Assembly: GCA_965116925.1 (NCBI GenBank) | Contig: OZ220744.1 | Span: forward strand, 3,744,001-3,808,000 | DNA: 64,000 bases | From: Candidatus Poribacteria bacterium | GTDB taxonomy: Bacteria; Poribacteria; WGA-4E; PCPOR2b | Direction: 5' to 3' | Shown here: one piece after another, positions 33,925 through 43,167 of the stretch | How positions within the stretch are numbered: position 1 is the stretch's first letter | Layout: the number at the start of each line of letters is the position of its first letter | Program-made: the position numbers and the translations under genes | The notes under the pieces: generated by a model | Databases searched by the model: none | Seen by the model: the letters and a program-made list of their open reading frames with translations, nothing else | What the model was told of the DNA's origin: nothing

Positions 33925-35454
33925 ATGAGGATTGGTATCGCTGGTCTTCATCATGAGACCAACACCTTTGCTTTAGAACAGAACGATACTATGGATACTG
34001 TCCATGTCCAGCGTGGAGAAACTCTGATCGCTACACACCCCAAGAATTTTATCGGCGGTTTTGTAGAAGGCGCCAAGCGAGGCGACGTAGAACTGGTTCC
34101 CACCGTCAGAATTGGCTTCGCCCACGGCGGCATCATCCATGCCGAAGTTTACCGGCGCTGTCGTGATATGATTGTGACAGGCTTGCAGCAGGCGGGACCG
34201 TTAGATGGCGTCTACTTCGCGCTTCATGGAGCGATGGTCGCAGAAGCACCCTATACCGATGCTGAAGGCGAACTGGTGCGGGAAGCGCGGCGGGTTCTAG
34301 GGGATATTCCTATGGTCGGTACTTACGACTTTCACGCTATCATGAGTGACGAGGAGGTTGAAGCACTCGTTCCTTTTCCTAATAACACCAATCCCCATAT
34401 TGACGGTTATGAGCGGGGATTGGAGGCGGCGGAATGTCTACTCCAAACGTTAGATGGCAAAATTAATCCGGTTACCCATCGAGTGTTTGTGCCGATCATT
34501 GGCCCCAATATCGGTCAAAGCACTTGGTCACACTTGCCGCAAGAGGAGCAAGGACTGCTACTCTATCAGTTGAACGAAAAGCGAGCGGAGATGGAAAAGA
34601 CCCCCAAGGTAATCAATATCACCATTCTCGGCGGCTACGGGTACGGTGATTCTGCGGATGCCGGTATGTCAATCATAGCGACGACTGACGGCGACCCGGA
34701 ACTCGCCAAACGACTGGCTCAAGAGTTGGCAAGGGATCTGTGGGAGCAACGGGAGCAATTGAAAATGGTGCGCCCGATACAATCTATTGATGCGGGAGTA
34801 AAAATGGCAATGGCTGATCCGCGAAAGCCGATTCTCTTGGTGGACTTAGGTGATGACCCCGGCAGTGCCTGTCCCGCCGATAGTCCGGCCGTGCTGGAAA
34901 GTCTGCTTCGTTGTGGGGCGCAGGATTGTGCACTCACTATCCGTGATGCAGAAGTGGTGCGCGCAGGCATAGCAGCCGGAGTAGGCGCAGAACTCAACAT
35001 CACCGTGGGGGGCAAGATTGACCAACGCTTCTACCAACCGCTGCAAATAACGGCTCAGGTCAAGTCTATTGACGATGGCAGGTACATGATCTGTGGTCCC
35101 ACACATGGTGGTTGGGGTCGTGAAGTCAACGAGGAAGCGTTTCGTGAGGCAAATGTGGGTAAGCGGGTTGTGCTGCGCACCGGGAATAAAATCGACGTTA
35201 TCTGCTCCCAACGAGGGACCGGCAAGGACCGAGATTTTTTCAAGAGTGCCGGTATCCTGTTGGAGGAGAAACAGATCCTCGTTGTCAAATCCAATCAAGC
35301 CCATCGCGCCTCCTTTGATCCGGTCGTTGCTGGCACCATAGAGCTAAACACCCCTGGTGTCAGCACTGTGAACTACGCTAGCCTCCCCTATCGCTACCTA
35401 CACCGCCCGATTTGGCCCATTGATGAGACGATGGATTGGCTGCCTTCTGCGTAG
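33925..35454 (+). CDS. M81 family metallopeptidase (MlrC-like)
   Basis: HETNTF, ALHGAMV, DFHA, PHID, DDPGS, VVKS. Confidence 0.88.
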   Translation: MRIGIAGLHHETNTFALEQNDTMDTVHVQRGETLIATHPKNFIGGFVEGAKRGDVELVPTVRIGFAHGGIIHAEVYRRCRDMIVTGLQQAGPLDGVYFALHGAMVAEAPYTDAEGELVREARRVLGDIPMVGTYDFHAIMSDEEVEALVPFPNNTNPHIDGYERGLEAAECLLQTLDGKINPVTHRVFVPIIGPNIGQSTWSHLPQEEQGLLLYQLNEKRAEMEKTPKVINITILGGYGYGDSADAGMSIIATTDGDPELAKRLAQELARDLWEQREQLKMVRPIQSIDAGVKMAMADPRKPILLVDLGDDPGSACPADSPAVLESLLRCGAQDCALTIRDAEVVRAGIAAGVGAELNITVGGKIDQRFYQPLQITAQVKSIDDGRYMICGPTHGGWGREVNEEAFREANVGKRVVLRTGNKIDVICSQRGTGKDRDFFKSAGILLEEKQILVVKSNQAHRASFDPVVAGTIELNTPGVSTVNYASLPYRYLHRPIWPIDETMDWLPSA

Positions 35455-35602
35455 TGTCTATGGGGAATTTGCTATCATTCAATCAACTCCGGCTGTGTCA
35501 AGAAAATAACTCAGAGTTTGTGCTTTTGGACATTAATTTGTCAGTTCCGATACTGATGCTAACAAGCTAATGATTGTACAGAGTTAGAACAGGAGATTGC
35601 TG

Positions 35603-36430
35603 ATGGAACAGCAACCACGAGAAAAATATCAACTCACCCTTGATCAGCGGCACTTCTTTGGAACACAAGGCTATCTGAAAGTTGAAGGATTGCTGAGTGA
35701 AGAAGACCTTCGTGAACTTGACCGTCATTCGATGGATATGGCGATGGGGAAGGTCGACTTCAGCCAACTGGAAGGAGTTACACCGAGAAGCGAGGGTAAC
35801 ACCCCTGCGGATATGGAGGATAAGTTCTTCCGCTTCATCCAGTTCCACCGGCACTTGACAATCCATGAGCGGTTTCTGCTACATCTCCGCATCCTTGATG
35901 TGCTTGAGACCTTGATTGGTCCCGATGTAATGGCGATGCAGTCAATGCTTTTCCTAAAGCCTCCGAAAAAATCCGGTCAGGCTTATCACCAAGATTCCTT
36001 TTACATCAAAACTGCCCCGGATACGTTGTGCGGAGCTTGGATAGCGATCGATGATTGCGATGAGGAGAACGGCTGCATGTATGTTGTTCCCGGTTCTCAC
36101 CTACACCCAATTTATGAGGAGGTAGCACTACCGGACAATACCGACGATTTTCAGGAAAGGCTGACCGAAATTGTCGGTGTAAAAGAAGGTAGCGAAGTAC
36201 CGGCGACCGCCAATGCCGGAGATGTCATCTTCTTCCATGGTCACCTTATCCATAGATCTAAGCAGAATCGATCAAAAGACCGATTTCGGCGGGCGTACGT
36301 CTGCCACTATGCCAACGCTCGATCTTATACCGAATGGGGCGAGGGCAATCAGAACCATATTCTTGCTCGCGGGTCAACGCATTTGCCGTTTGCGACACCT
36401 CGCTTTGTTACGCATGACCCGCTTGAGTAG
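35603..36430 (+). CDS. Phytanoyl-CoA dioxygenase (PhyH) family
   Basis: YHQD...VPGSH...GDVIFFHGHLIHRS. Confidence 0.9.
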   Translation: MEQQPREKYQLTLDQRHFFGTQGYLKVEGLLSEEDLRELDRHSMDMAMGKVDFSQLEGVTPRSEGNTPADMEDKFFRFIQFHRHLTIHERFLLHLRILDVLETLIGPDVMAMQSMLFLKPPKKSGQAYHQDSFYIKTAPDTLCGAWIAIDDCDEENGCMYVVPGSHLHPIYEEVALPDNTDDFQERLTEIVGVKEGSEVPATANAGDVIFFHGHLIHRSKQNRSKDRFRRAYVCHYANARSYTEWGEGNQNHILARGSTHLPFATPRFVTHDPLE

Positions 36431-36473
36431 CGTTCCAGTTTCGATTTTTAGGTATACCAATTCGCTCCGTTGA

Positions 36474-36640
36474 AACTTGGAAAGGAGATTTCGGTCAGTT
36501 ACCCCGCCCTGAAGGGACGGGGCTTGTTTGAAACGTCCGTCCAACGGGTCTTACAAGGTTCTGCGCTTCTGTCCCCTGACGGGGGATTTCGGGGTCGTTT
36601 GCAACCGACGCACCTCCACGCAAGGCTACAGCAGCCTTTT
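36474..36640 (-). ncRNA. Predicted omega/reRNA of TnpB-1 (5' boundary approximate)
   Basis: Overlaps the tnpB 3' tail and right-end hairpin; the flank gives guide CGAAAUCUCCUUUCCAAGUU. Confidence 0.6.
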
Positions 36641-37721
36641 TGATATTTATCGCGGCGTTATGGTCTCTATTGAGGACCAACCCACAATGGGGGCAATCAT
36701 GGAGACGATCCGACAACTGTTTAGGCACAACTTCATTACAACCGGAGCATTGCTGACTGGTATGGTGAGGTTTCACTTTCGTGAACTGCTTGCCGGCACT
36801 TGCAGCCTTGCTTTGCAGTTTCAATCGAAAGCTACCCCATCCCGCGTCAGATATACTCTTGGCGAGGTAGTGGTTCTTCAACATATTGGTGATGGTCAAG
36901 TTCTCTACAGCGACCTCATCACATCGTTCAAGGAGACGATGGGCTGCCTTGAACTGAAAATCCTTGCGCTGATTCACTATCCGTTCATGGCAACGGGCGA
37001 CAATCTCACGTTGTTTTGCTCGGCGGCGGCTCCCCTTTTTGCGGCGAGACAATACGCATTGATGTTTGCCAAGCTTCTTTTCGGATTTACGATAATGGCG
37101 GAGGTTTGGGATATGTTCGCCATCAGAATCGACAGCAAACGAGTTAAGTCCCACGTCTACGCCAATCGTCGTGTGGACAGGGACTTCTATAGGGGCTGGC
37201 ACTTCGACGCAGATAGTTACATACCAACCGCTGGCTCGCTTGATGACCGTCAGATTCTTGATGTTGCCGTCAGGTAAAGGACGGTGATAACGAATCTTGA
37301 GGTGTCCTATTTTCGGAACAACGACTTTGGCAAACTTACGATGTACACTCCGGACCAGCTGCTTGGACAGGTGGCTAAAGGTCATTGACCGGTATCGCCC
37401 TTCGCCTTTGAAGCGGGGGAAGCCCGGTGCCGCCCCGTTCTTGGCACGGCGGAAGAATGCTTTGTACGCTTTATCCAAACGGCGCATCGCATCTTGGAGA
37501 ACATCCGCGTGAAGTCCTGCAAATGCCTTGGATGCTGCTTTCAAGTCAGGTAAGGCGTTGGCTTGGGTCGTCCATTTGACAGAATCGTTATTTTTCTGGT
37601 AAGCGTCTATCCGCCACGCTAACGCTTGATTGTAGAGATTTCGCAACAAGGCAAGCCAAAACAAAAAAGTATGTCGCTGTTTCGTCGTAGGATAGGCGCG
37701 ATATTCATAAGTCTTTTTCAT
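36495..37721 (-). CDS. tnpB: RNA-guided endonuclease TnpB, canonical RuvC
   Basis: YEYRAYPT helix-turn-helix start, GVDVG, AVENL, TSQQCSGC...CPHCG...RDHNAA. Confidence 0.93.
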   Translation of the reverse strand: MKKTYEYRAYPTTKQRHTFLFWLALLRNLYNQALAWRIDAYQKNNDSVKWTTQANALPDLKAASKAFAGLHADVLQDAMRRLDKAYKAFFRRAKNGAAPGFPRFKGEGRYRSMTFSHLSKQLVRSVHRKFAKVVVPKIGHLKIRYHRPLPDGNIKNLTVIKRASGWYVTICVEVPAPIEVPVHTTIGVDVGLNSFAVDSDGEHIPNLRHYRKSEKKLGKHQCVLSRRKKGSRRRAKQREIVARCHERIVNQRKDFQFKAAHRLLERCDEVAVENLTITNMLKNHYLAKSISDAGWGSFRLKLQSKAASAGKQFTKVKPHHTSQQCSGCNEVVPKQLSDRLHDCPHCGLVLNRDHNAAINIKKAAVALRGGASVANDPEIPRQGTEAQNLVRPVGRTFQTSPVPSGRGN

Positions 37722-37736
37722 GCTGGTTAGCTTTCT

Positions 37737-37812
37737 GGCTTTCATTCCTTTTCTACGAGGTGTAGGGGACATCCCGAAGGGTTCGGGATGGTAGAAATCC
37801 CCTACGAAAGCC
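37737..37812 (-). ncRNA. Pseudoknotted tnpB 5'-leader RNA, copy 1
   Basis: Four perfectly paired helices; same topology as 40272-40346. Confidence 0.7.
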
Positions 37813-37818
37813 ATAAGA

Positions 37819-37847
37819 ACTGTACCATATTTCACACAACTTTTCAA
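37819..37847 (-). promoter_or_regulatory. Sigma70-type promoter of tnpB-1
   Basis: TTGAAA-17 nt-TACAGT with extended TG. Confidence 0.6.
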
Positions 37848-37908
37848 CGAAAAAGGAGCGCAGTTTCCTCCCCGCTCTAAAGAATGGGGGCTCCACTGCG
37901 AAGATTTG

Positions 37909-38760
37909 ATGAACAATCAAGATGTCAAACTGACGGATCAGCAGATCAATTTTTTTCAGACCTTCGGTTATCTAAGCTTCCCCGGATTCTTGGCAGACCG
38001 TAGCGAGGAAATCATCAATGCGTTTGAAGCGGTTTGGGCGGAACGTGGAGGAGGCCATAACGGGAAACCCCACGAGGGGACAGCACGCTCCTGTATCGTT
38101 CCGTTCATCGATCAGAGCGAATATTTATCGTCTCTGTTAGATGACCCCCGTATATTGAGAATAGCGACCACGCTTCTCGGTGACGACTTCAACTATATGG
38201 GCAGCGATGGGAACTACTACGTCGGAGATACGCGCTGGCATTCTGATGGGGGACACAAACCGGAGGATCCTACCCACCTCAAAATTGCATTTTACCTCGA
38301 TCATCTAACCCGTGACACCGGTGCCCTGCGCGTCATTCCCGGCAGCCATCTCTTTGGGGATGGTTACGCGGATCGGCTTCAGGAGGAGATTCGGGAGAGT
38401 GAAGCAGACTGGGGCGTTCATGGCAAGGATGTGCCAGCAATCGCATTCGAGACGCAGCCGGGGGATGTGGTGTGTTTCAATCACAATACCAAGCACGCTG
38501 CGTTTGGCGGCGGCACACGCCGACGGATGTTTACCATGAACCTTTGTGAACGTTATCCCGAAAATCGTTTGGAGGACCTACGCACCTACATCGGCAACTC
38601 AGCGCGGTTCTGGATCGACCGCAAATATGGTCCGAAGATGGTAGGTACTGCGGGCCCTGAACGGATAGTGCACTTAGAACAGGTGATGGCTAACGATGGG
38701 CATCTCGCTGAGCTTTCACGTAAAGCGCAGGAAACAATGAGCGAACCTTCGCGTGGGTAA
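37909..38760 (+). CDS. PhyH family dioxygenase separated from its RBS
   Basis: FFQTFGYL, WHSD, VIPGSH, PGDVVCFNHNTKHA. Confidence 0.88.
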   Translation: MNNQDVKLTDQQINFFQTFGYLSFPGFLADRSEEIINAFEAVWAERGGGHNGKPHEGTARSCIVPFIDQSEYLSSLLDDPRILRIATTLLGDDFNYMGSDGNYYVGDTRWHSDGGHKPEDPTHLKIAFYLDHLTRDTGALRVIPGSHLFGDGYADRLQEEIRESEADWGVHGKDVPAIAFETQPGDVVCFNHNTKHAAFGGGTRRRMFTMNLCERYPENRLEDLRTYIGNSARFWIDRKYGPKMVGTAGPERIVHLEQVMANDGHLAELSRKAQETMSEPSRG

Positions 38761-38814
38761 GTTCTCCGCTAGTGTAGCGCGTTCATCCTCTCATTTCACA
38801 CAACTACGATTTGT

Positions 38815-38853
38815 GTTCAGGGGTTCAAGGGTTGTTAAACCCCTGAACTTTTT
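38815..38853 (+). terminator. Rho-independent terminator
   Basis: GTTCAGGGGTT...AACCCCTGAAC-TTTTT between convergent genes. Confidence 0.7.
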
Positions 38854-38871
38854 GTAGCATTCATAGGTCGG

Positions 38872-39912
38872 CTAAAAAGCTGACTGCACCCTTTCCGCCT
38901 TCCCGCTCCTTGCAGACCGCTCGCAGGCATCTAACACAGCGATGACCTTCGTACCGACCTCTGCGTTAATTAGTGGCTGTTTGTTGTGCTTGAGGCAGTC
39001 TTCAAAATGTAGCATATAACGCACCACTTCACCGATATGTCCAACATCGGCAATCTCATCTGTCCCTATAGAAGCGGCCTCTTCGACGGGGATGATGCTG
39101 CGATGGTCATCATCGAAAATCGCATCCCCATTGACAACACTGCCGGCAGTTCCGTAGACCGATAGCCCTAGCATTGGCATCGGTGCATGACAGAGACCGT
39201 AAAGCCCTAGGACACGGCCGAGCCGCCCATCCTCATAGATTAGATTGACCATCCAGTTGTCGTTGAAATGTCCCTCACCTGACGGATATCGCTCATCAAT
39301 TCCGCTTTCATGGGCAATCGCATGTACGGCACTGGGGAAACCGAGAAACCAGATAATCAGATCCATTGGATGACACAGTCCGCCGTAGAGCGTTTTCTGA
39401 GGCATCTGGTGTCTCCACGGTGTCGCTGTTAGCACGCTGCGCATATCATGGACATAATGGGCTTCGACTGCGACGATATTGCCAAGTTTGCCAGCTTCCA
39501 TTAATCGGTGCGTGTGCATAAAATCTGGTCGAAAGCGGCAGGTCTGTCCAACCATGAGTTTCAAACCGGTTTCCCGCGTCCTCTGCAATACACGAACCGC
39601 ATCGTCAAGGCTGTCAACAAACCCTTTTGTGCAGATTATATGCTTGCCACAATCGAGAGCGTCAAGGCAGTGCTGTGCGTGAAGTGGATCCGGTGTGTAA
39701 ATGCCCACGATGTCGATTTCATCCCGCTGGAGGAGTTCCCGATAATCCATCGTTGCAAACGGAACATTATGTTCTGTACGGATGCTTTCCAGCCGATCCG
39801 CATCTGTATCGCAAATCCCCCGGATTTCCAGATCGGTATCGGGAATCTGTCGAATCCCAAACATCGACTTTCCCATCCCTAACCCAATAATCCCAACGCC
39901 AATTTTCTCCAT
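38872..39912 (-). CDS. Gfo/Idh/MocA family oxidoreductase
   Basis: IGVGIIGLGMG, GKHIICTK; AGGAGG RBS. Confidence 0.85.
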   Translation of the reverse strand: MEKIGVGIIGLGMGKSMFGIRQIPDTDLEIRGICDTDADRLESIRTEHNVPFATMDYRELLQRDEIDIVGIYTPDPLHAQHCLDALDCGKHIICTKGFVDSLDDAVRVLQRTRETGLKLMVGQTCRFRPDFMHTHRLMEAGKLGNIVAVEAHYVHDMRSVLTATPWRHQMPQKTLYGGLCHPMDLIIWFLGFPSAVHAIAHESGIDERYPSGEGHFNDNWMVNLIYEDGRLGRVLGLYGLCHAPMPMLGLSVYGTAGSVVNGDAIFDDDHRSIIPVEEAASIGTDEIADVGHIGEVVRYMLHFEDCLKHNKQPLINAEVGTKVIAVLDACERSARSGKAERVQSAF

Positions 39913-40071
39913 GTCTCTATCGCCTCCTGTTGTAGATGTCAAAATTACCCATTTTTCCCGCGAAAATGCGAAAATTGTTTCCACCTCAAAGTTGAGGATT
40001 ATATCATAGATTATGAATTGCATTACAAACAAAGACATTTTAATTTTATGTTACGAAAAACCCTTTAGGTC

Positions 40072-40177
40072 TATAGTAGATTTTAGAATTAATGAGACAC
40101 TGCAAATCGGCGCAGTTGGAAACAGCGCCTACCAGATGAGGAGCGAAAGTGTCTGTTTATTTTTTAAATTCACTATA
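40072..40177 (+). mobile_element. MITE family C (TATA-flanked) with REP-like cargo
   Basis: TATAGTAGATTTTAGAATTAAT...TTTTTAAATTCACTATA; close copy at 45337-45444. Confidence 0.8.
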
Positions 40178-40236
40178 AATCCCAATCCTTTAGGTTTGGA
40201 GCATTTGGGGCGCAGCCTATACAGATTGCTTTAGCA

Positions 40237-40265
40237 TCGACTTTTCAGGAGAAATATGGTATACT
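40237..40265 (+). promoter_or_regulatory. Sigma70-type promoter of tnpB-2
   Basis: TCGACT-17 nt-TATACT with extended TG; GAAATATGGTA shared with the tnpB-1 promoter. Confidence 0.65.
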
Positions 40266-40271
40266 TGTCCC

Positions 40272-40346
40272 GTCTTTCGGTGGGAAGGTTCGACACCATC
40301 GCACGGTGGTGCTTCCCACACCCTATCGAACAGGAAGACGAAAGAC
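40272..40346 (+). ncRNA. Pseudoknotted tnpB 5'-leader RNA, copy 2
   Basis: Four helices that covary with copy 1. Confidence 0.7.
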
Positions 40347-40362
40347 CGAAAGGACCCTCCCC

Positions 40363-41514
40363 ATGTATACAACCAAGAAGCTGAAATATGATAAGACCCC
40401 TGACTTGGATATGCTTGCTCACGAGTCTGGTCGTTGCTATTGCAAAGTTGTGTCTTTACTCTGGAAAGTCAAGCGGAAGAAAGGGTTTTGGCTATCACAA
40501 GGTGCAGTCCAAAAGTATATGCGTTTGCGTGGCTACAATCTACACTCACAAACGGTACAAGCGATAATCCAATCCTATTTTGATTCGCTCAAGAGTTACT
40601 TTCGGGCTGTCGAGTCAAATCCTGAAGCGAAGCCACCAAAACGGACTCCTCATTTCTACAAGGTGCGTTGGATTCAAAATGGCATCGCCTTCAAAGATGG
40701 TGTCGTCAGGTTGTCTAATGGTAAAGGCAATGCGCCTATTACCCTCAAATCAGATGTCAAACCGGTCTATGTGGAGATGTACTTCCAACGGGGGAGTTAC
40801 TACTTTTCACTTGTCTACAAGGTGCATACACCCCCCAAGTGTGAAACAGACAAAGCGGTTGCGATAGACATGGGTGAGATTCACCCGATAGTTTCTCATG
40901 ACGGACAACAGACCATCATCTACAATGGTCGTGCGTTACGGGCTATCAAACAGTATATCAACAAGTTTAAGGCACATATCCAATCTAAAATGGATAGGTG
41001 TATCAAACGAAGTAATCGCTGGTATCGTCTCAAACGAGTTAAGACCAAGATACTGGCAAAGTTGAACGCTCAACTGAAGGACGCCGAACATAAAATCACA
41101 TCTCGATTTATATCCGACTGCTTAAAGGCGAAGGCGGATACGATAGTGATTGGAGACCTAAAAAGTATCCGGGATAGAGCGAAGTTTTCTAAGAAGTCTA
41201 ACCAGAAGGTTCACCAATGGGCGTTTGCCCGTCTCCAATTCATGATATGCTACAAAGCAGAGTTAGCAGGACTCAAAGTCAAGGTTGTATCCGAGGCATA
41301 CACCTCTCAGACCTGCCCACGGTGTGGCAATCGAAAGAAACCGACAAACCGGAACTATCACTGCAATCACTGTAGCTTTGAATACCACCGAGACGGTGTT
41401 GGTGCAATCAACCTTTGGAACAAAGTATCGGGATTCCTGTTGAGTCCCGTAGTTGGGGCGATGGTGTCCCCGATAGGTGTCAGATTTGATTGGCACCTAT
41501 GTAAATCTGGCTAA
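40363..41514 (+). CDS. tnpB: TnpB with rearranged RuvC-II
   Basis: AIDMG, IVIGDL, VSEAYTSQTCPRCG...CNHC...HRDGVGAINL. Confidence 0.9.
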   Translation: MYTTKKLKYDKTPDLDMLAHESGRCYCKVVSLLWKVKRKKGFWLSQGAVQKYMRLRGYNLHSQTVQAIIQSYFDSLKSYFRAVESNPEAKPPKRTPHFYKVRWIQNGIAFKDGVVRLSNGKGNAPITLKSDVKPVYVEMYFQRGSYYFSLVYKVHTPPKCETDKAVAIDMGEIHPIVSHDGQQTIIYNGRALRAIKQYINKFKAHIQSKMDRCIKRSNRWYRLKRVKTKILAKLNAQLKDAEHKITSRFISDCLKAKADTIVIGDLKSIRDRAKFSKKSNQKVHQWAFARLQFMICYKAELAGLKVKVVSEAYTSQTCPRCGNRKKPTNRNYHCNHCSFEYHRDGVGAINLWNKVSGFLLSPVVGAMVSPIGVRFDWHLCKSG

Positions 41515-41727
41515 CATAGTGGATAAGAATCCCAATGCTTTCGCTTTGGGAGTACGTCAATGGATTTTTAGGGAAAACGCAAGCCTACTGAAGCAATTAT
41601 GTCGAACAATAGAATTTTGCTTGTATAAAAATTTGGTTTGTGCTACAATATGGCAAACTTTTGGAAATTGTCATACCATAAACCATATTCGTTCACTTTA
41701 GAATGAATCTTTTCCGAGGAGGTAACA

Positions 41728-42600
41728 ATGAGAAGTATAACAGGAATAGCGATTGTTAGCATTTTTGTTTTTAGTATTATCCTCAGTGGCTGCGGTAAAT
41801 TGAGCAAAGAAGAGTTTGCCATGGAGATGGATAAATACAACCAAGAAAATACAGCGGCACACACTGATCTGGGTAACCAAGTCTCTGAGCTGAGTGGCAA
41901 GGTTGATGCTCAAGGGGATGCTTTGAGGTCAGAGGTGTCTATGGCAAAAGAAGCTGCCATTACTGCCTCTCAGCAGGGTGATGCGGATACAATTACAGTT
42001 GCCAAAGAGGCAGCTGAAAGTGGGGACGCCAAACTGCGTGAGGAACTTATGCAGACTGCAAATATGGTTGAGGAAAAGGCACAACAGGCCGCCATGTCCG
42101 GAGATCAGAAGCTCCAGGACCAGATTGCTGCCGTTGAGGATACAACCAAAATGCAAGCCCAAAAGATATCCGATTTGGAAGCTGCACTCATGGAGACAAA
42201 AAAGGCACTTGCTGCAACTAAAGAGATGGCTGCTGCCAAACCAATGATGGTGGCTACAGTTCAGTTCCCCAGTGGGAAAGTCGACCTGACTGCAGCTGCC
42301 ATGGAAGCCCTTGATAAAGCAGTGGCAAAGATTCAAGCAGATGCTGAGGCATCGGTCCTCGTCAAGGGTCACGCGGATGGCAGCCCGGTACTCAGGGGAA
42401 GATACCGCAGCAACTGGGATCTTTCTCAAGCTCGTGCAGATTCGGTTGTGCAATATCTCAAGAGCAAAGGCGTAGCGAATACAATTCAATCTCGTGGACT
42501 TGGACATACGGAACCTATCGCTCCAGTTAAGACGAGAGAGGGGCGCGCCCAGAACCGGCGAGCAGAGGTTATTCTCTTGCCGGCTGGCTCGATGATGTAG
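41728..42600 (+). CDS. OmpA/MotB-domain lipoprotein with coiled-coil region
   Basis: LSGC lipobox; KGHAD, SNWDLSQARA, RAQNRRAEV. Confidence 0.88.
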   Translation: MRSITGIAIVSIFVFSIILSGCGKLSKEEFAMEMDKYNQENTAAHTDLGNQVSELSGKVDAQGDALRSEVSMAKEAAITASQQGDADTITVAKEAAESGDAKLREELMQTANMVEEKAQQAAMSGDQKLQDQIAAVEDTTKMQAQKISDLEAALMETKKALAATKEMAAAKPMMVATVQFPSGKVDLTAAAMEALDKAVAKIQADAEASVLVKGHADGSPVLRGRYRSNWDLSQARADSVVQYLKSKGVANTIQSRGLGHTEPIAPVKTREGRAQNRRAEVILLPAGSMM

Positions 42601-42623
42601 CACTTCACACTGTACCTACTTTC

Positions 42624-42668
42624 AGGGAAATTGGGTGGAATCGGCTTCATCCCAATTTCCCTTTTTTT
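42624..42668 (+). terminator. Rho-independent terminator
   Basis: AGGGAAATTGGG...CCCAATTTCCC-TTTTTTT. Confidence 0.8.
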
Positions 42669-42699
42669 ATGATAATTTAAGTTGCTGTTCAAAAAGTGT

Positions 42700-43167
42700 A
42701 TGGCGAGCAAGAACCAACTATTTGAGGCGAAAACGGAATTTATCGGTACACGCGGCGTTAAAGAGTACCGTGAGACCATCCCTGTTTGGGTGAATACAGA
42801 TGATGTTGTGCTAGAAATCGGTTGTGAGTGGGGGACGACAACCGCGTTGATTGCGCCGCATTGTCAGAAGGTCATCGGTACTGACATTAGTCCTAAGTGT
42901 ATTGAGCGTGCCCGGGAAATGCACCCTGACCTGCACTTTGAGGTCCTAGATGGATTCGATGTTAAAGCAGCACTTGAGTTCGGTGAACAGTTTAATAAGA
43001 TTTATATTGATATTTCCGGTTTATCTGGTTACCGGTCTCTGCTTGATACAATTTCGTTACTTATGATGTACGCGACTGTGCTGCGGCCCGAAGCAATTAT
43101 CGTTAAAAGTGGCGCGCTCAAACGTTTTGCTGCACACTGTATTCCGTGGCGGTCAACGTCATCTTAA
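42700..43167 (+). CDS. Small class I SAM-dependent methyltransferase
   Basis: VLEIGCEWG, IGTDIS. Confidence 0.75.
   Translation: MASKNQLFEAKTEFIGTRGVKEYRETIPVWVNTDDVVLEIGCEWGTTTALIAPHCQKVIGTDISPKCIERAREMHPDLHFEVLDGFDVKAALEFGEQFNKIYIDISGLSGYRSLLDTISLLMMYATVLRPEAIIVKSGALKRFAAHCIPWRSTSS

What the first reader, a model, noticed from the sequence alone, without database searches (positions are those of the whole stretch)
36474..37915. tnpB element inserted exactly between a Shine-Dalgarno and its ATG; TAM and guide predictable
Seen: deleting 36494-37908 yields AAAGGAG-ATTTCG-ATGAACAAT, a normal start for the second phyH gene, with no target duplication as expected for Y1 peel-and-paste insertion. 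The target on the element strand is TTCAT, the reverse complement of ATGAA. The right-end pair CAAG/TGAC follows the IS608 guide/cleavage pairing pattern. Inference: TAM is TTCAT and the guide CGAAAUCUCCUUUCCAAGUU covers the anti-SD of the empty allele. This specificity would bias the family toward Met-Lys/Met-Asn starts, leaving ORFs intact while uncoupling them from their RBS, so excision could act as an ON switch. The left-end guide looks degenerate (GAGC rather than the expected GAAA).
Basis: partly seen in the sequence, partly recalled or inferred. Interest (0 to 1): 0.7.

Follow-up and report, generated by a model that had tools for sequence, protein, structure and literature searches.

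The report
TnpB transposon wedged at start codon
A small jumping gene that carries only an RNA-guided nuclease sits exactly between the ribosome-binding site and the start codon of an enzyme gene, and about half of its sister copies sit at gene starts too, because the short DNA word it needs beside it is the mirror image of the commonest gene start.

Summary
Window 36494-37908 (minus strand, 1415 nt) is a tnpB-only IS200/IS605 element. All 12 same-genus genomes fetched have the empty site, and one is letter-identical to the window's flanks joined (GGAAAGGAGATTTCG|ATGAAC). There is no duplication, and the element lies between the SD and the ATG of a PhyH gene.

The TAM and target is TTCAT (core TCAY): 12 of 20 left-end junctions in this genome and 91 of 149 unique junctions in the genus.

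The predicted start-codon bias is real. At 10 of 20 junctions here and 68 of 148 in the genus, the ATG or GTG in the reverse complement of the TAM opens an ORF of at least 100 aa. My rough null for non-disruptive sites gives 21-25%.

The kind is known: N|ATGA-target IS605B/ISC transposons (Kapitonov 2016) and the TTCAT TAM of ISGst5 (Meers 2023). This scan noted the same start-codon parking on other DNA (e1-7796505).

The ON-switch idea is not supported:
- This genome has no cognate tnpA.
- Genes carrying a shared insertion at their start codon show purifying selection.
- TnpB is expected, from its relatives, to cut the restored site.

The cause of the excess at start codons is open.

The parts
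36474..36493 (-). Flank 3' of the right end on the element strand (CGAAATCTCCTTTCCAAGTT). This is the predicted omega-RNA guide. On the + strand it holds the native SD GGAAAGGAG (36479-36487) and the 6-nt spacer of phyH#2.
   Evidence: empty sites in 12 relatives; anti-SD duplex energy -13.3 kcal/mol
36494..37908 (-). tnpB-only IS200/IS605 element (IS1341 / 'IS605B' type), 1415 nt, with no terminal inverted repeats and no target duplication.
   Evidence: copy boundaries; empty sites; joint skipping 1415 nt
36494..36526 (-). Right-end core: guide tetranucleotide CAAG (36526-36523), hairpin CCCCGTCCCTTCAGGGCGGGG (36522-36502), TAAC, and cleavage tetranucleotide TGAC (36497-36494).
   Evidence: hairpin pairs kept with compensatory changes, (columns 146-162)
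36494..36648 (-). Predicted omega-RNA scaffold, overlapping the 3' end of tnpB and the right end.
   Evidence: RNAalifold on 14 diverged copies: 27 pairs, 7 with double compensatory changes. The RNA itself was not observed.
36495..37721 (-). tnpB, 408 aa, intact. Its TGA stop (36497-36495) lies inside the terminal TGAC.
   Evidence: Pfam OrfB_IS605, Cas12f1-like_TNB and HTH_OrfB_IS605; ISDra2 TnpB 8bf8 E 5e-58, with GVDxG, AVExL and RDxNAA motifs aligned
37722..37908 (-). Left end. +1 is 37908. Guide GAGC at +16 to +19 (37893-37890). Hairpin 37889-37870 inside an outer stem CGCAGT/ACTGCG. Promoter-like site 37847-37819 in front of tnpB.
37909..37913 (-). TAM and target TTCAT on the element strand, which is ATGAA (codons 1-2 of phyH#2) on the + strand.
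37909..38760 (+). phyH#2 (PhyH dioxygenase family), intact ORF of 283 aa, now separated from its SD by the element.
35597..36430 (+). phyH#1, the upstream paralogue on the same strand. In the empty allele it lies about 60 nt from phyH#2.

Best explanation
This is a non-autonomous, tnpB-only member of the IS200/IS605 superfamily, of the group whose target is N|ATGA. On the element strand that means insertion 3' of TCAT, here TTCAT.

Mechanism. A Y1 transposase supplied in trans peeled the top strand out and pasted it 3' of TTCAT on the strand opposite phyH#2. That point is immediately before the gene's ATG, so the SD was displaced 1415 nt upstream without any base gained or lost (shown). The right end is cut after TGAC, positioned by CAAG 5' of the hairpin. 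The left end and target TCAT is read by the tetranucleotide at +16 to +19 (inferred from the IS608 rule). The 3' part of the element should give an omega-RNA whose guide is the 20 nt beyond the right end. With TAM TTCAT this matches only the empty allele, so TnpB would cut a restored site and favour re-copying of the element (inferred from ISDra2 and Geobacillus work).

Why so many start codons. TTCAT is the reverse complement of ATGAA, the commonest start pentamer in this genome (991 of 5307 gene calls). Insertions inside genes are purged. As a result, close to half of the family's surviving copies sit exactly at start codons. An excess of about two-fold over my null remains unexplained.

In this genome the copies are probably immobile at present, because there is no cognate tnpA.
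For: Element and protein.

Exact seamless junction: (12 of 12 relatives fetched have the empty site, one letter-identical).

TAM: (20 junctions in this genome: TTCAT 12, TTCAC 5, GTCAT 2, CTCAT 1). (149 unique junctions in the genus, 148 of them NTCAY). At non-start sites T at -5 is 65%, against 33% expected from ATGA sites.

Start-codon occupancy: 10 of 20 in this genome. Pfam families were found for 8 of the 9 other ORFs tested, four with the profile's first position at residues 1-15, plus PhyH for the window's own gene. In the genus, 68 of 148. Of the 50 such sites with a right-end flank, 41 have an SD motif 4-20 nt upstream in the rebuilt empty site, against 15 of 69 at other sites.

Background in this genome: 5.3% of 18,536 ATGAA sites are called starts; 17-19% open an ORF of at least 100 aa; 21-25% among sites that disrupt no called gene. 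Binomial p is 1e-8 to 1e-11.

Purging of genic insertions: at most 15 of 119 sites lie in a spanning ORF of at least 100 aa, against 72-79% of motif sites that lie in coding sequence.

Pairing rule: PMC5934647 and PMC3201880 passages. Position 4 of the left guide is G in 15-16 of 17 TCAC-target copies and mostly A in TCAT-target copies.

Omega-RNA: 7 of 27 pairs compensatory.

tnpA: only a truncated IS200-type copy and REP-type Y1 genes in this genome. Autonomous tnpA+tnpB elements with near-identical hairpins occur in G002 and G007.

Known kind: N|ATGA targets (PMC4810608) and TTCAT TAM of ISGst5 (PMC10055086).
Against: - No transposase was shown to act on these ends. The autonomous relatives use TTAT/TCAA rather than TCAT/TGAC.
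- The window's left guide GAGC mismatches the T of TCAT, and its hairpin carries an A where most copies have G. The GAGC variant is nevertheless found at three loci, so it did move.
- No omega-RNA, cleavage or transcript ends were observed. Only contigs could be laid.
- Fold energies of the ends and of the RNA are no better than shuffles.
- The null model uses my own crude gene calls on one genome, while most sites come from relatives. Sites are not fully independent.
- 'TAM plus purging of genic insertions' does not account for the roughly two-fold excess of start sites over other non-coding sites. A position-weight model of the flanks built from non-start sites raises the expectation only to 18-21%.
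Confidence: 0.85

Rival explanations
1. Start codons are actively preferred at the insertion step, beyond the 5-nt motif. One possible reason is that the DNA around translation starts is more often single-stranded or unstructured, so the bias is mechanistic rather than a survivor effect.
For: Start sites make up 48% (50 of 104) of non-disruptive insertions with a known right-end flank, against 21% expected. The excess survives weighting by the flank preferences seen at non-start sites (18-21%). Young copies (at least 97% identical to another copy) are at starts in 15 of 44 cases.
Against: Non-start sites show no anti-SD bias at +7 to +12 and no preference for the 5' side of neighbouring genes (38 against 40). 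The start fraction is somewhat higher among older copies (35 of 75) than younger ones (15 of 44), as differential survival would predict. My intergenic count may be inflated by uncalled small genes. Replication-strand bias could not be tested because no origin or terminus shows in GC skew or gene-strand skew.
Confidence: 0.3
2. The insertion works as a reversible genetic switch. The wedge silences phyH#2, and precise excision turns it back on, to the host's benefit.
For: Excision in this superfamily is seamless and leaves the target tetranucleotide in place (PMC3201880 passages). The ORF is intact. The left end offers no SD: -1.8 against -13.3 kcal/mol for the native site. Two terminator-like hairpins face the incoming host transcript, though their number is not above shuffles.
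Against: This genome has no cognate tnpA. The copies here are 95-96% identical to one another, not identical. The empty alleles seen in public contigs come from diverged relatives, not the same strain. Genes with shared wedge insertions stay under purifying selection, so the wedge is not a plain OFF state. TnpB is expected to cut the restored allele.
Confidence: 0.05
3. The TnpB is a domesticated RNA-guided repressor (TldR-like) aimed at the ribosome-binding region of phyH#2.
For: The guide covers the SD region of the empty allele.
Against: The three RuvC motifs align intact. The element is multi-copy with a different flank at every locus. In the occupied allele the TAM and the guide match lie 1415 nt apart, so there is no target to bind.
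Confidence: 0.02

Closest known systems
IS605B / ISC transposons with the N|ATGA target (IS605B-1_MA of Microcystis, ISC1-1_MA, ISC2-1_HM, ISC2-1_MS; Kapitonov, Makarova and Koonin 2016, PMC4810608, passages read)
   Same: tnpB-only or iscB-only non-autonomous elements. They insert immediately upstream of ATGA with no duplication. Read on the ATGA strand, the termini are 5'-GT and CG/TG-3'. They have subterminal hairpins and are presumed to be mobilised in trans by a Y1 transposase. The weak HEARO-like hit on the + strand of the right end (20 bits, E 0.83) fits the shared terminus, with tnpB and iscB in opposite orientation as that paper describes.
   Different: Different host lineage and sequence. 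The main text of that paper holds neither 'start codon' nor 'initiation', so the start-codon occupancy measured here is not discussed there. Its supplements were not read.
ISGst5 (IscB) and ISGst2 (TnpB2) of Geobacillus stearothermophilus (Meers et al. 2023, PMC10055086, passages read)
   Same: A TTCAT TAM for ISGst5, with the TAM equal to the transposase target. Many tnpA-less copies and gene-less PATE derivatives are predicted to be moved in trans. From the title and abstract, guide RNAs bias the element's own inheritance.
   Different: The TTCAT element there carries IscB, not TnpB. Its TnpB2 uses TTTAT. Nothing was tested experimentally here.
ISDra2 TnpB (PDB 8bf8, 8exa, 8h1j)
   Same: Same length (408 aa). 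E 5e-58 over residues 3-371. Same Pfam domains.
   Different: From recall, the ISDra2 TAM is TTGAT and ISDra2 carries its own tnpA.
IS608 of Helicobacter pylori (PMC3201880 and PMC5934647, passages read)
   Same: The guide tetranucleotide lies 5' of each hairpin foot. The left guide is at +16 to +19, with the foot at +20. The pairing scheme fits CAAG/TGAC here.
   Different: IS608 cuts at TTAC and TCAA. Its right cleavage site is 10 nt from the hairpin (8 nt here). It is autonomous.

Membership tests
IS200/IS605 superfamily (IS1341 / IS605B, tnpB-only) | Insertion without target-site duplication and without terminal inverted repeats | tested here: met
   The empty site in L047 equals the window's flanks joined, and 12 of 12 relatives fetched are empty. 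A joint skips 1415 nt.
IS200/IS605 superfamily (IS1341 / IS605B, tnpB-only) | Insertion 3' of a fixed 4-5 nt word that stays next to the left end | tested here: met
   148 of 149 unique junctions have NTCAY, 91 of them TTCAT. In this genome 20 of 20 do.
IS200/IS605 superfamily (IS1341 / IS605B, tnpB-only) | Subterminal imperfect hairpins at both ends | tested here: met
   Related hairpins, CCCC(G/A)TTCTTTAGAGCGGGG at the left end and CCCCGTCCCTTCAGGGCGGGG at the right end. Right-end pairs are kept with compensatory changes. Fold energy alone is not above shuffles.
IS200/IS605 superfamily (IS1341 / IS605B, tnpB-only) | Guide tetranucleotide 5' of the hairpin pairs with the cleavage tetranucleotide (IS608 scheme) | tested here: inconclusive
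   Right end CAAG/TGAC fits at all four positions. Left end GAGC/TCAT fits at positions 1 and 2 but not at 4 in the window copy. The family majority GAGA/GAAA fits, and GAAG goes with TCAC. The scheme was taken from passages. No biochemistry was done.
IS200/IS605 superfamily (IS1341 / IS605B, tnpB-only) | Y1 (HUH) transposase TnpA available | tested here: not met
   None in the element. The genome has 5 Y1_Tnp hits: one truncated IS200-type gene, two REP-associated, two distant. Autonomous relatives occur only in other species. This is the accepted state of non-autonomous IS1341-type members, so it does not exclude membership.
TnpB RNA-guided nucleases | OrfB_IS605 RuvC domain with zinc-ribbon TNB domain and intact catalytic motifs | tested here: met
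   Pfam PF01385 (1.7e-25), PF07282 (2.5e-21) and PF12323 (3.2e-9). GVDxG, AVExL and RDxNAA align.
TnpB RNA-guided nucleases | Structured omega-RNA over the 3' end of tnpB and the right end, with the guide read from the flank | tested here: inconclusive
   The conserved structure has 7 of 27 compensatory pairs. No Rfam family reaches threshold. No RNA ends were observed.
TnpB RNA-guided nucleases | TAM-dependent, guide-dependent DNA cleavage | not testable with these tools
   Needs a TAM depletion or plasmid interference assay.
IStron (group I intron fused to an IS200/IS605 element) | Group I intron in the sense of the host gene | tested here: not met
   No intron family on either strand at E up to 1 in 35000-43000. 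tnpB is antisense to phyH#2.

The most novel reading that the evidence does not exclude
Families of IS200/IS605 elements that target ATGA use start codons as preferred landing or parking sites. They do so beyond what the motif's frequency, its flank preferences and the loss of gene-disrupting copies explain. The host genes keep working although their Shine-Dalgarno sequence is moved 0.15-1.5 kb away. That would imply an unrecognised way of expressing genes across such a wedge, or SD-independent initiation in these bacteria. It would make these elements a common, seamless and potentially reversible modifier of translation starts.
Probability: 0.3. Interest if true: 0.7.

Novelty: new member of a known kind. 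Interest (0 to 1): 0.5.

Why it matters
The case gives an exactly resolved insertion with a natural empty allele, so TAM and guide can be read directly for an untested TnpB. It also shows on about 150 sites that a transposon's 5-nt target can place half of its surviving copies between ribosome-binding sites and start codons. That bears on three things:
- how such elements avoid killing their hosts;
- how genome annotators should treat 'orphaned' start codons;
- whether genes can still be expressed across the wedge.
If insertion itself prefers start codons, the single-strand transposition field would have a new target determinant to explain.

Tried and rejected
- **Rfam, both strands, 35000-43000.** Only a sub-threshold HEARO hit on the + strand. 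No group I intron, so the element is not an IStron.
- **Substitute SD at the left end.** Rejected. The anti-SD duplex is -1.8 kcal/mol for the window and for the median of 149 copies, weaker than random positions (-2.9).
- **Translational coupling through the UGAUG made by the junction.** The 31-codon frame that ends there has no ATG, GTG or TTG.
- **Looping out by pairing of the two termini.** By eye, CAAATC and the reverse complement of the right-end terminus are not complementary. No call was made.
- **Extended target motif as the cause of the start bias.** It raises the expectation only to 18-21%.
- **Preference for 5' regions of genes at non-start sites.** 38 against 40.
- **Age proxy.** Noisy: at least 99% identity 6 of 9 at starts, 97-99% 9 of 35, 93-97% 19 of 43, under 93% 16 of 32.
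- **Replication-strand bias.** Cumulative GC skew is monotonic and gene-strand skew is patternless, so no origin or terminus could be placed.
- **tnpA inside fetched elements.** tblastn found none.
- **First RNAalifold run on 24 mixed subfamilies.** It gave only 4 pairs. The 14-sequence subset was used instead.
- **Fold energies.** Not above shuffles.
- **Reads.** All four runs laid were contigs, so no RNA ends, strand or allele frequencies could be read. The short joints in X1 and X2 (sides 26 and 30 nt, one extra letter) cannot be assigned to a strain.
- **Paper searches.** For a published link between this target and start codons. For TnpB in Poribacteria. None found in the library searched. 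One search failed on a term format. PMC7290912 and PMC8024623 held nothing relevant in the passages returned.
Full report
**1. What is in the sequence**

The minus strand of window 36494-37908 carries a 1415-nt element. Its only long ORF is a 408-aa TnpB (36495-37721). Pfam finds OrfB_IS605, Cas12f1-like_TNB and HTH_OrfB_IS605. The protein matches ISDra2 TnpB chains 8bf8, 8exa and 8h1j at E 5e-58, with the GVDxG, AVExL and RDxNAA motifs aligned. The ISDra2 residue numbers are recalled only.

On the + strand the element is flanked by two PhyH-family genes, 35597-36430 and 37909-38760.

**2. Boundaries and empty site**

A search of the window's own genome (6.47 Mb, one contig) gave:
- four more full copies at 95-96% identity;
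- one truncated copy;
- four copies at about 70%;
- short end-only derivatives.

Similarity to the window starts exactly at 36494 and ends at 37913. Beyond those points the flanks are unrelated. The last five shared letters are ATGAA, which is TTCAT on the element strand.

In relatives the two flanks are adjacent. I fetched 12 such loci and all 12 lack the element. Each has GGAAAGGAG or AAAGGAG, 5-6 nt, then ATG. One of them (L047, G014) is letter-identical to the window's flanks joined.

Public assemblies also hold an empty form. A 3542-nt contig of run X5 joins 36492 to 37908, with 12 and 27 differences in the flanks, so it comes from a relative. A contig of X4 crosses the right-end junction, which is the occupied form. 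These are contigs, so they say nothing about excision within one strain.

**3. Ends**

Right end (element strand): CAAG, then the hairpin CCCCGTCCCTTCAGGGCGGGG, then TAAC, then TGAC. The tnpB stop codon TGA lies inside that last TGAC.

Left end: TTCAT | CAAATCTTCGCAGTG GAGC CCCC...GGGG. The four letters GAGC are at +16 to +19 and the hairpin foot is at +20. That is the geometry given for IS608, where the guide is four bases 5' of the foot and A+16 pairs with T-3 and A+17 with T-4. IS608 has left guide AAAG with cleavage site TTAC, and right guide GAAT with cleavage site TCAA (PMC3201880 and PMC5934647, passages).

Read with that scheme (1 with 2, 2 with 1, 3 opposite 3, 4 with 4; the last two inferred by me from the printed IS608 sequences):
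- CAAG/TGAC fits fully.
- GAGC/TCAT fails at position 4.

Across the family, the four letters 5' of the C run as one search printed them were:
- with TCAT targets: GAAA 43, GAGA 28, GGAG 23;
- with TCAC targets: GAAG 10.

Counting the mis-registered rows of that table by eye, position 4 is G in 15-16 of the 17 TCAC-target copies. GGAG precedes a run of five C, so I re-registered it by eye as GAGC. The window's variant is therefore a tolerated mismatch. It occurs at three loci in this genome.

Fold energies of the ends are not better than shuffles. The support for the hairpins is their conservation and the compensatory changes in the right end.

**4. TAM and target**

I located left ends independently of their flanks.
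- This genome: 20 junctions, TTCAT 12, TTCAC 5, GTCAT 2, CTCAT 1.
- The genus: a left-end search hit 19 of 20 genomes, with 150 rows shown, 70 not shown, and two genomes capped at 40 matches.

I used the 28 loci the search returned for relatives, plus 109 listed rows fetched with their flanks. I left out the unlisted rows and two rows at contig ends. This gave 137 junctions. With the 20 from this genome that makes 157, or 149 after merging likely orthologous sites.

Unique junctions by TAM: TTCAT 91, ATCAT 17, CTCAT 16, GTCAT 7, TTCAC 10, CTCAC 4, ATCAC 3, GTTAT 1.

At sites that are not gene starts, T at -5 is still 65% (33% expected from ATGA sites), A or T at -6 is 84%, and T at +1 is 52%. 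So the core is TCAY, with a real preference for T before it. TTCAT is right for this copy.

TTCAT is already the experimentally shown TAM of the IscB element ISGst5 (PMC10055086, passages). N|ATGA is a published target of IS605B and ISC transposons (PMC4810608, passages).

**5. The start-codon bias**

In this genome the ATG or GTG inside the reverse complement of the TAM opens an ORF of at least 100 aa at 10 of 20 junctions. Of the nine besides the window, eight have Pfam families. In four of these (TPP_enzyme_N, GFO_IDH_MocA, PMSR, RraA-like) position 1 of the profile falls at residues 1-15.

In the genus the figure is 68 of 148. Of the 50 such sites where the right end was found, 41 have an SD motif 4-20 nt upstream in the rebuilt empty site, against 15 of 69 at other sites.

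Background comes from my own simple gene calls on this genome (5307 calls, 83% coding):
- ATGAA is the commonest start pentamer (991 genes).
- Of 18,536 ATGAA sites, 5.3% are called starts, 22% are non-coding and 72% are coding.
- 17-19% of motif sites open an ORF of at least 100 aa.
- Among sites that break no called gene, 21-25% qualify as starts.

The observed 46-52% exceeds these nulls, with binomial p from 1e-8 to 1e-11. These are not true probabilities, because sites come from related genomes and the null comes from one genome.

At most 15 of 119 insertions lie in a spanning ORF of at least 100 aa. Genic insertions are therefore strongly depleted, as purifying selection would predict.

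**6. Why the excess?**

| Test | Result |
|---|---|
| Flank model built from non-start sites | Expected start share rises only to 18-21% |
| Anti-SD bias at non-start sites | None |
| Preference for the 5' side of the nearest gene | None (38 against 40) |
| Share at starts, copies at least 97% identical to another | 15 of 44 |
| Share at starts, older copies | 35 of 75 |
| Replication-strand bias | Not testable; no origin or terminus visible |

The age result fits some enrichment by survival, but young copies are also above the null. I leave the cause open: survivor effect, insertion preference, or both.

**7. Consequence for the gene**

The native site pairs with the 16S tail (…CACCTCCTTTCT) at -13.3 kcal/mol. 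The left end offers -1.8, like every copy in the family. Two terminator-like hairpins face the incoming host transcript, though their number is no higher than in shuffles. A loss of expression is therefore plausible for phyH#2.

Yet one gene carries a derivative of 427-484 nt at its start codon in at least G002 and G004. In G011 the same site carries the left end, but the right end was not found. The derivative itself is 89% identical between G002 and G004 while its flanks are 94-96% identical, so the insertion is probably ancestral. That gene differs at codon positions 1/2/3 by 3/0/44 and 9/5/106 over 367 codons. A second case with a full-length element gives 16/6/106. There the elements are more alike (95.7%) than the flanks (86-88%), so its history is less clear.

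Such genes are evidently still needed and expressed. How they are expressed is unexplained. A substitute SD and stop-start coupling were tested and rejected.

**8. Mobility**

No element of the family that I fetched holds a tnpA. This genome has only a truncated IS200-type tnpA, two REP-type Y1 genes and two distant ones.

Autonomous tnpA+tnpB elements occur in G002 and G007. Their left end starts CAAAATCTTC and their hairpin CCCCGTCTTTTAAGGCGGGG matches some family members. They use TTAT and TCAA, with GAAT 5' of the right hairpin. Because cleavage sites are set in cis by the guides, that transposase is the likeliest helper (inferred).

For the window's genome this means no present route to excision. 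Together with section 7 and the expected cutting of the restored site by TnpB, this argues against the ON-switch idea.

**9. Omega-RNA**

The last 155 nt of 14 diverged copies give a consensus of 27 pairs, 7 with compensatory double changes. No Rfam family reaches threshold. The guide is then the 20 nt after 36494 on the minus strand. The RNA itself was not observed.

**10. Comparison and verdict**

This is a new member of a known kind: a non-autonomous IS200/IS605 element of the N|ATGA / TTCAT target group.

I did not find the link to start codons in the papers I could search. The main text of the 2016 paper holds no 'start codon' or 'initiation'; its supplements were not read. Earlier notes of this scan report the same parking at start codons for an IscB-type family in other bacteria (e1-7796505), and an analogous case with an SD-like TAM (e1-6486398). 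I did not check those counts.

Earlier notes also call this genome a sponge-associated Poribacteria. Several runs that hold the stretch are labelled sponge metagenome. I did not check the taxonomy.

Noticed in passing
window 40306-41514 (+): A second tnpB of a different family (402 aa, Pfam OrfB_IS605 and TNB). In G005, G006 and G018 a tnpB with a closely similar N-terminus directly follows a 144-aa tnpA (L200-L202). The window copy is therefore probably another tnpA-less derivative.
   Followed up: partly
G000:C1 about 4082733 (outside the window): One family copy (TAM CTCAT) seems to have landed inside the left end of that other IS family. Its upstream flank matches the sequence in front of tnpA in L200 and L202.
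   Followed up: no
L059/L172, L112/L121, L126/L180: The same target site is occupied in sister species by clearly different subfamily members. Examples: flanks 98-99.5% identical but elements 81% identical, or a full-length element against a 476-nt derivative. This could be independent re-use of a site or replacement by recombination between copies. I estimated informally, with no call, that a few such coincidences could arise by chance.
   Followed up: partly
window 36494-36498 (-): The tnpB reading frame stays open to the very end of the element. Its TGA stop is part of the right-end cleavage tetranucleotide TGAC.
   Followed up: no
window 36486-36493 and 37901-37908: The native spacer (AGATTTCG) and the outward end of the element (AGATTTG) are nearly the same. 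That is why alignments of the empty site overrun the junction by 7-8 nt. The left end still has no SD.
   Followed up: partly
G000:C1 4161432-4161828 and 4433296-4433692: Two 392-nt gene-less derivatives (left end plus right end) sit at the start codons of an HtrA-like protease gene and a TPP-enzyme gene. In the genus, short derivatives are at starts more often than full elements: 24 of 41 short derivatives with a TCAY target against 26 of 78.
   Followed up: partly
G014:C49 27808-29226 (L189): In the relative whose empty site is identical to the window's, another family copy (TAM ATCAT) lies about 30 nt from the 3' end of the same phyH#2 gene.
   Followed up: no
G000:C1 about 5955107, 701269 and 328972: A distant Y1-like gene is followed by an ORF that looks like Cas2 by eye. 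Two REP-type Y1 genes are flanked by repeated palindromic units.
   Followed up: no
whole genome G000: Cumulative GC skew rises almost monotonically over the whole contig, and gene-strand skew shows no two-arm pattern. No replication origin or terminus can be read from composition.
   Followed up: no
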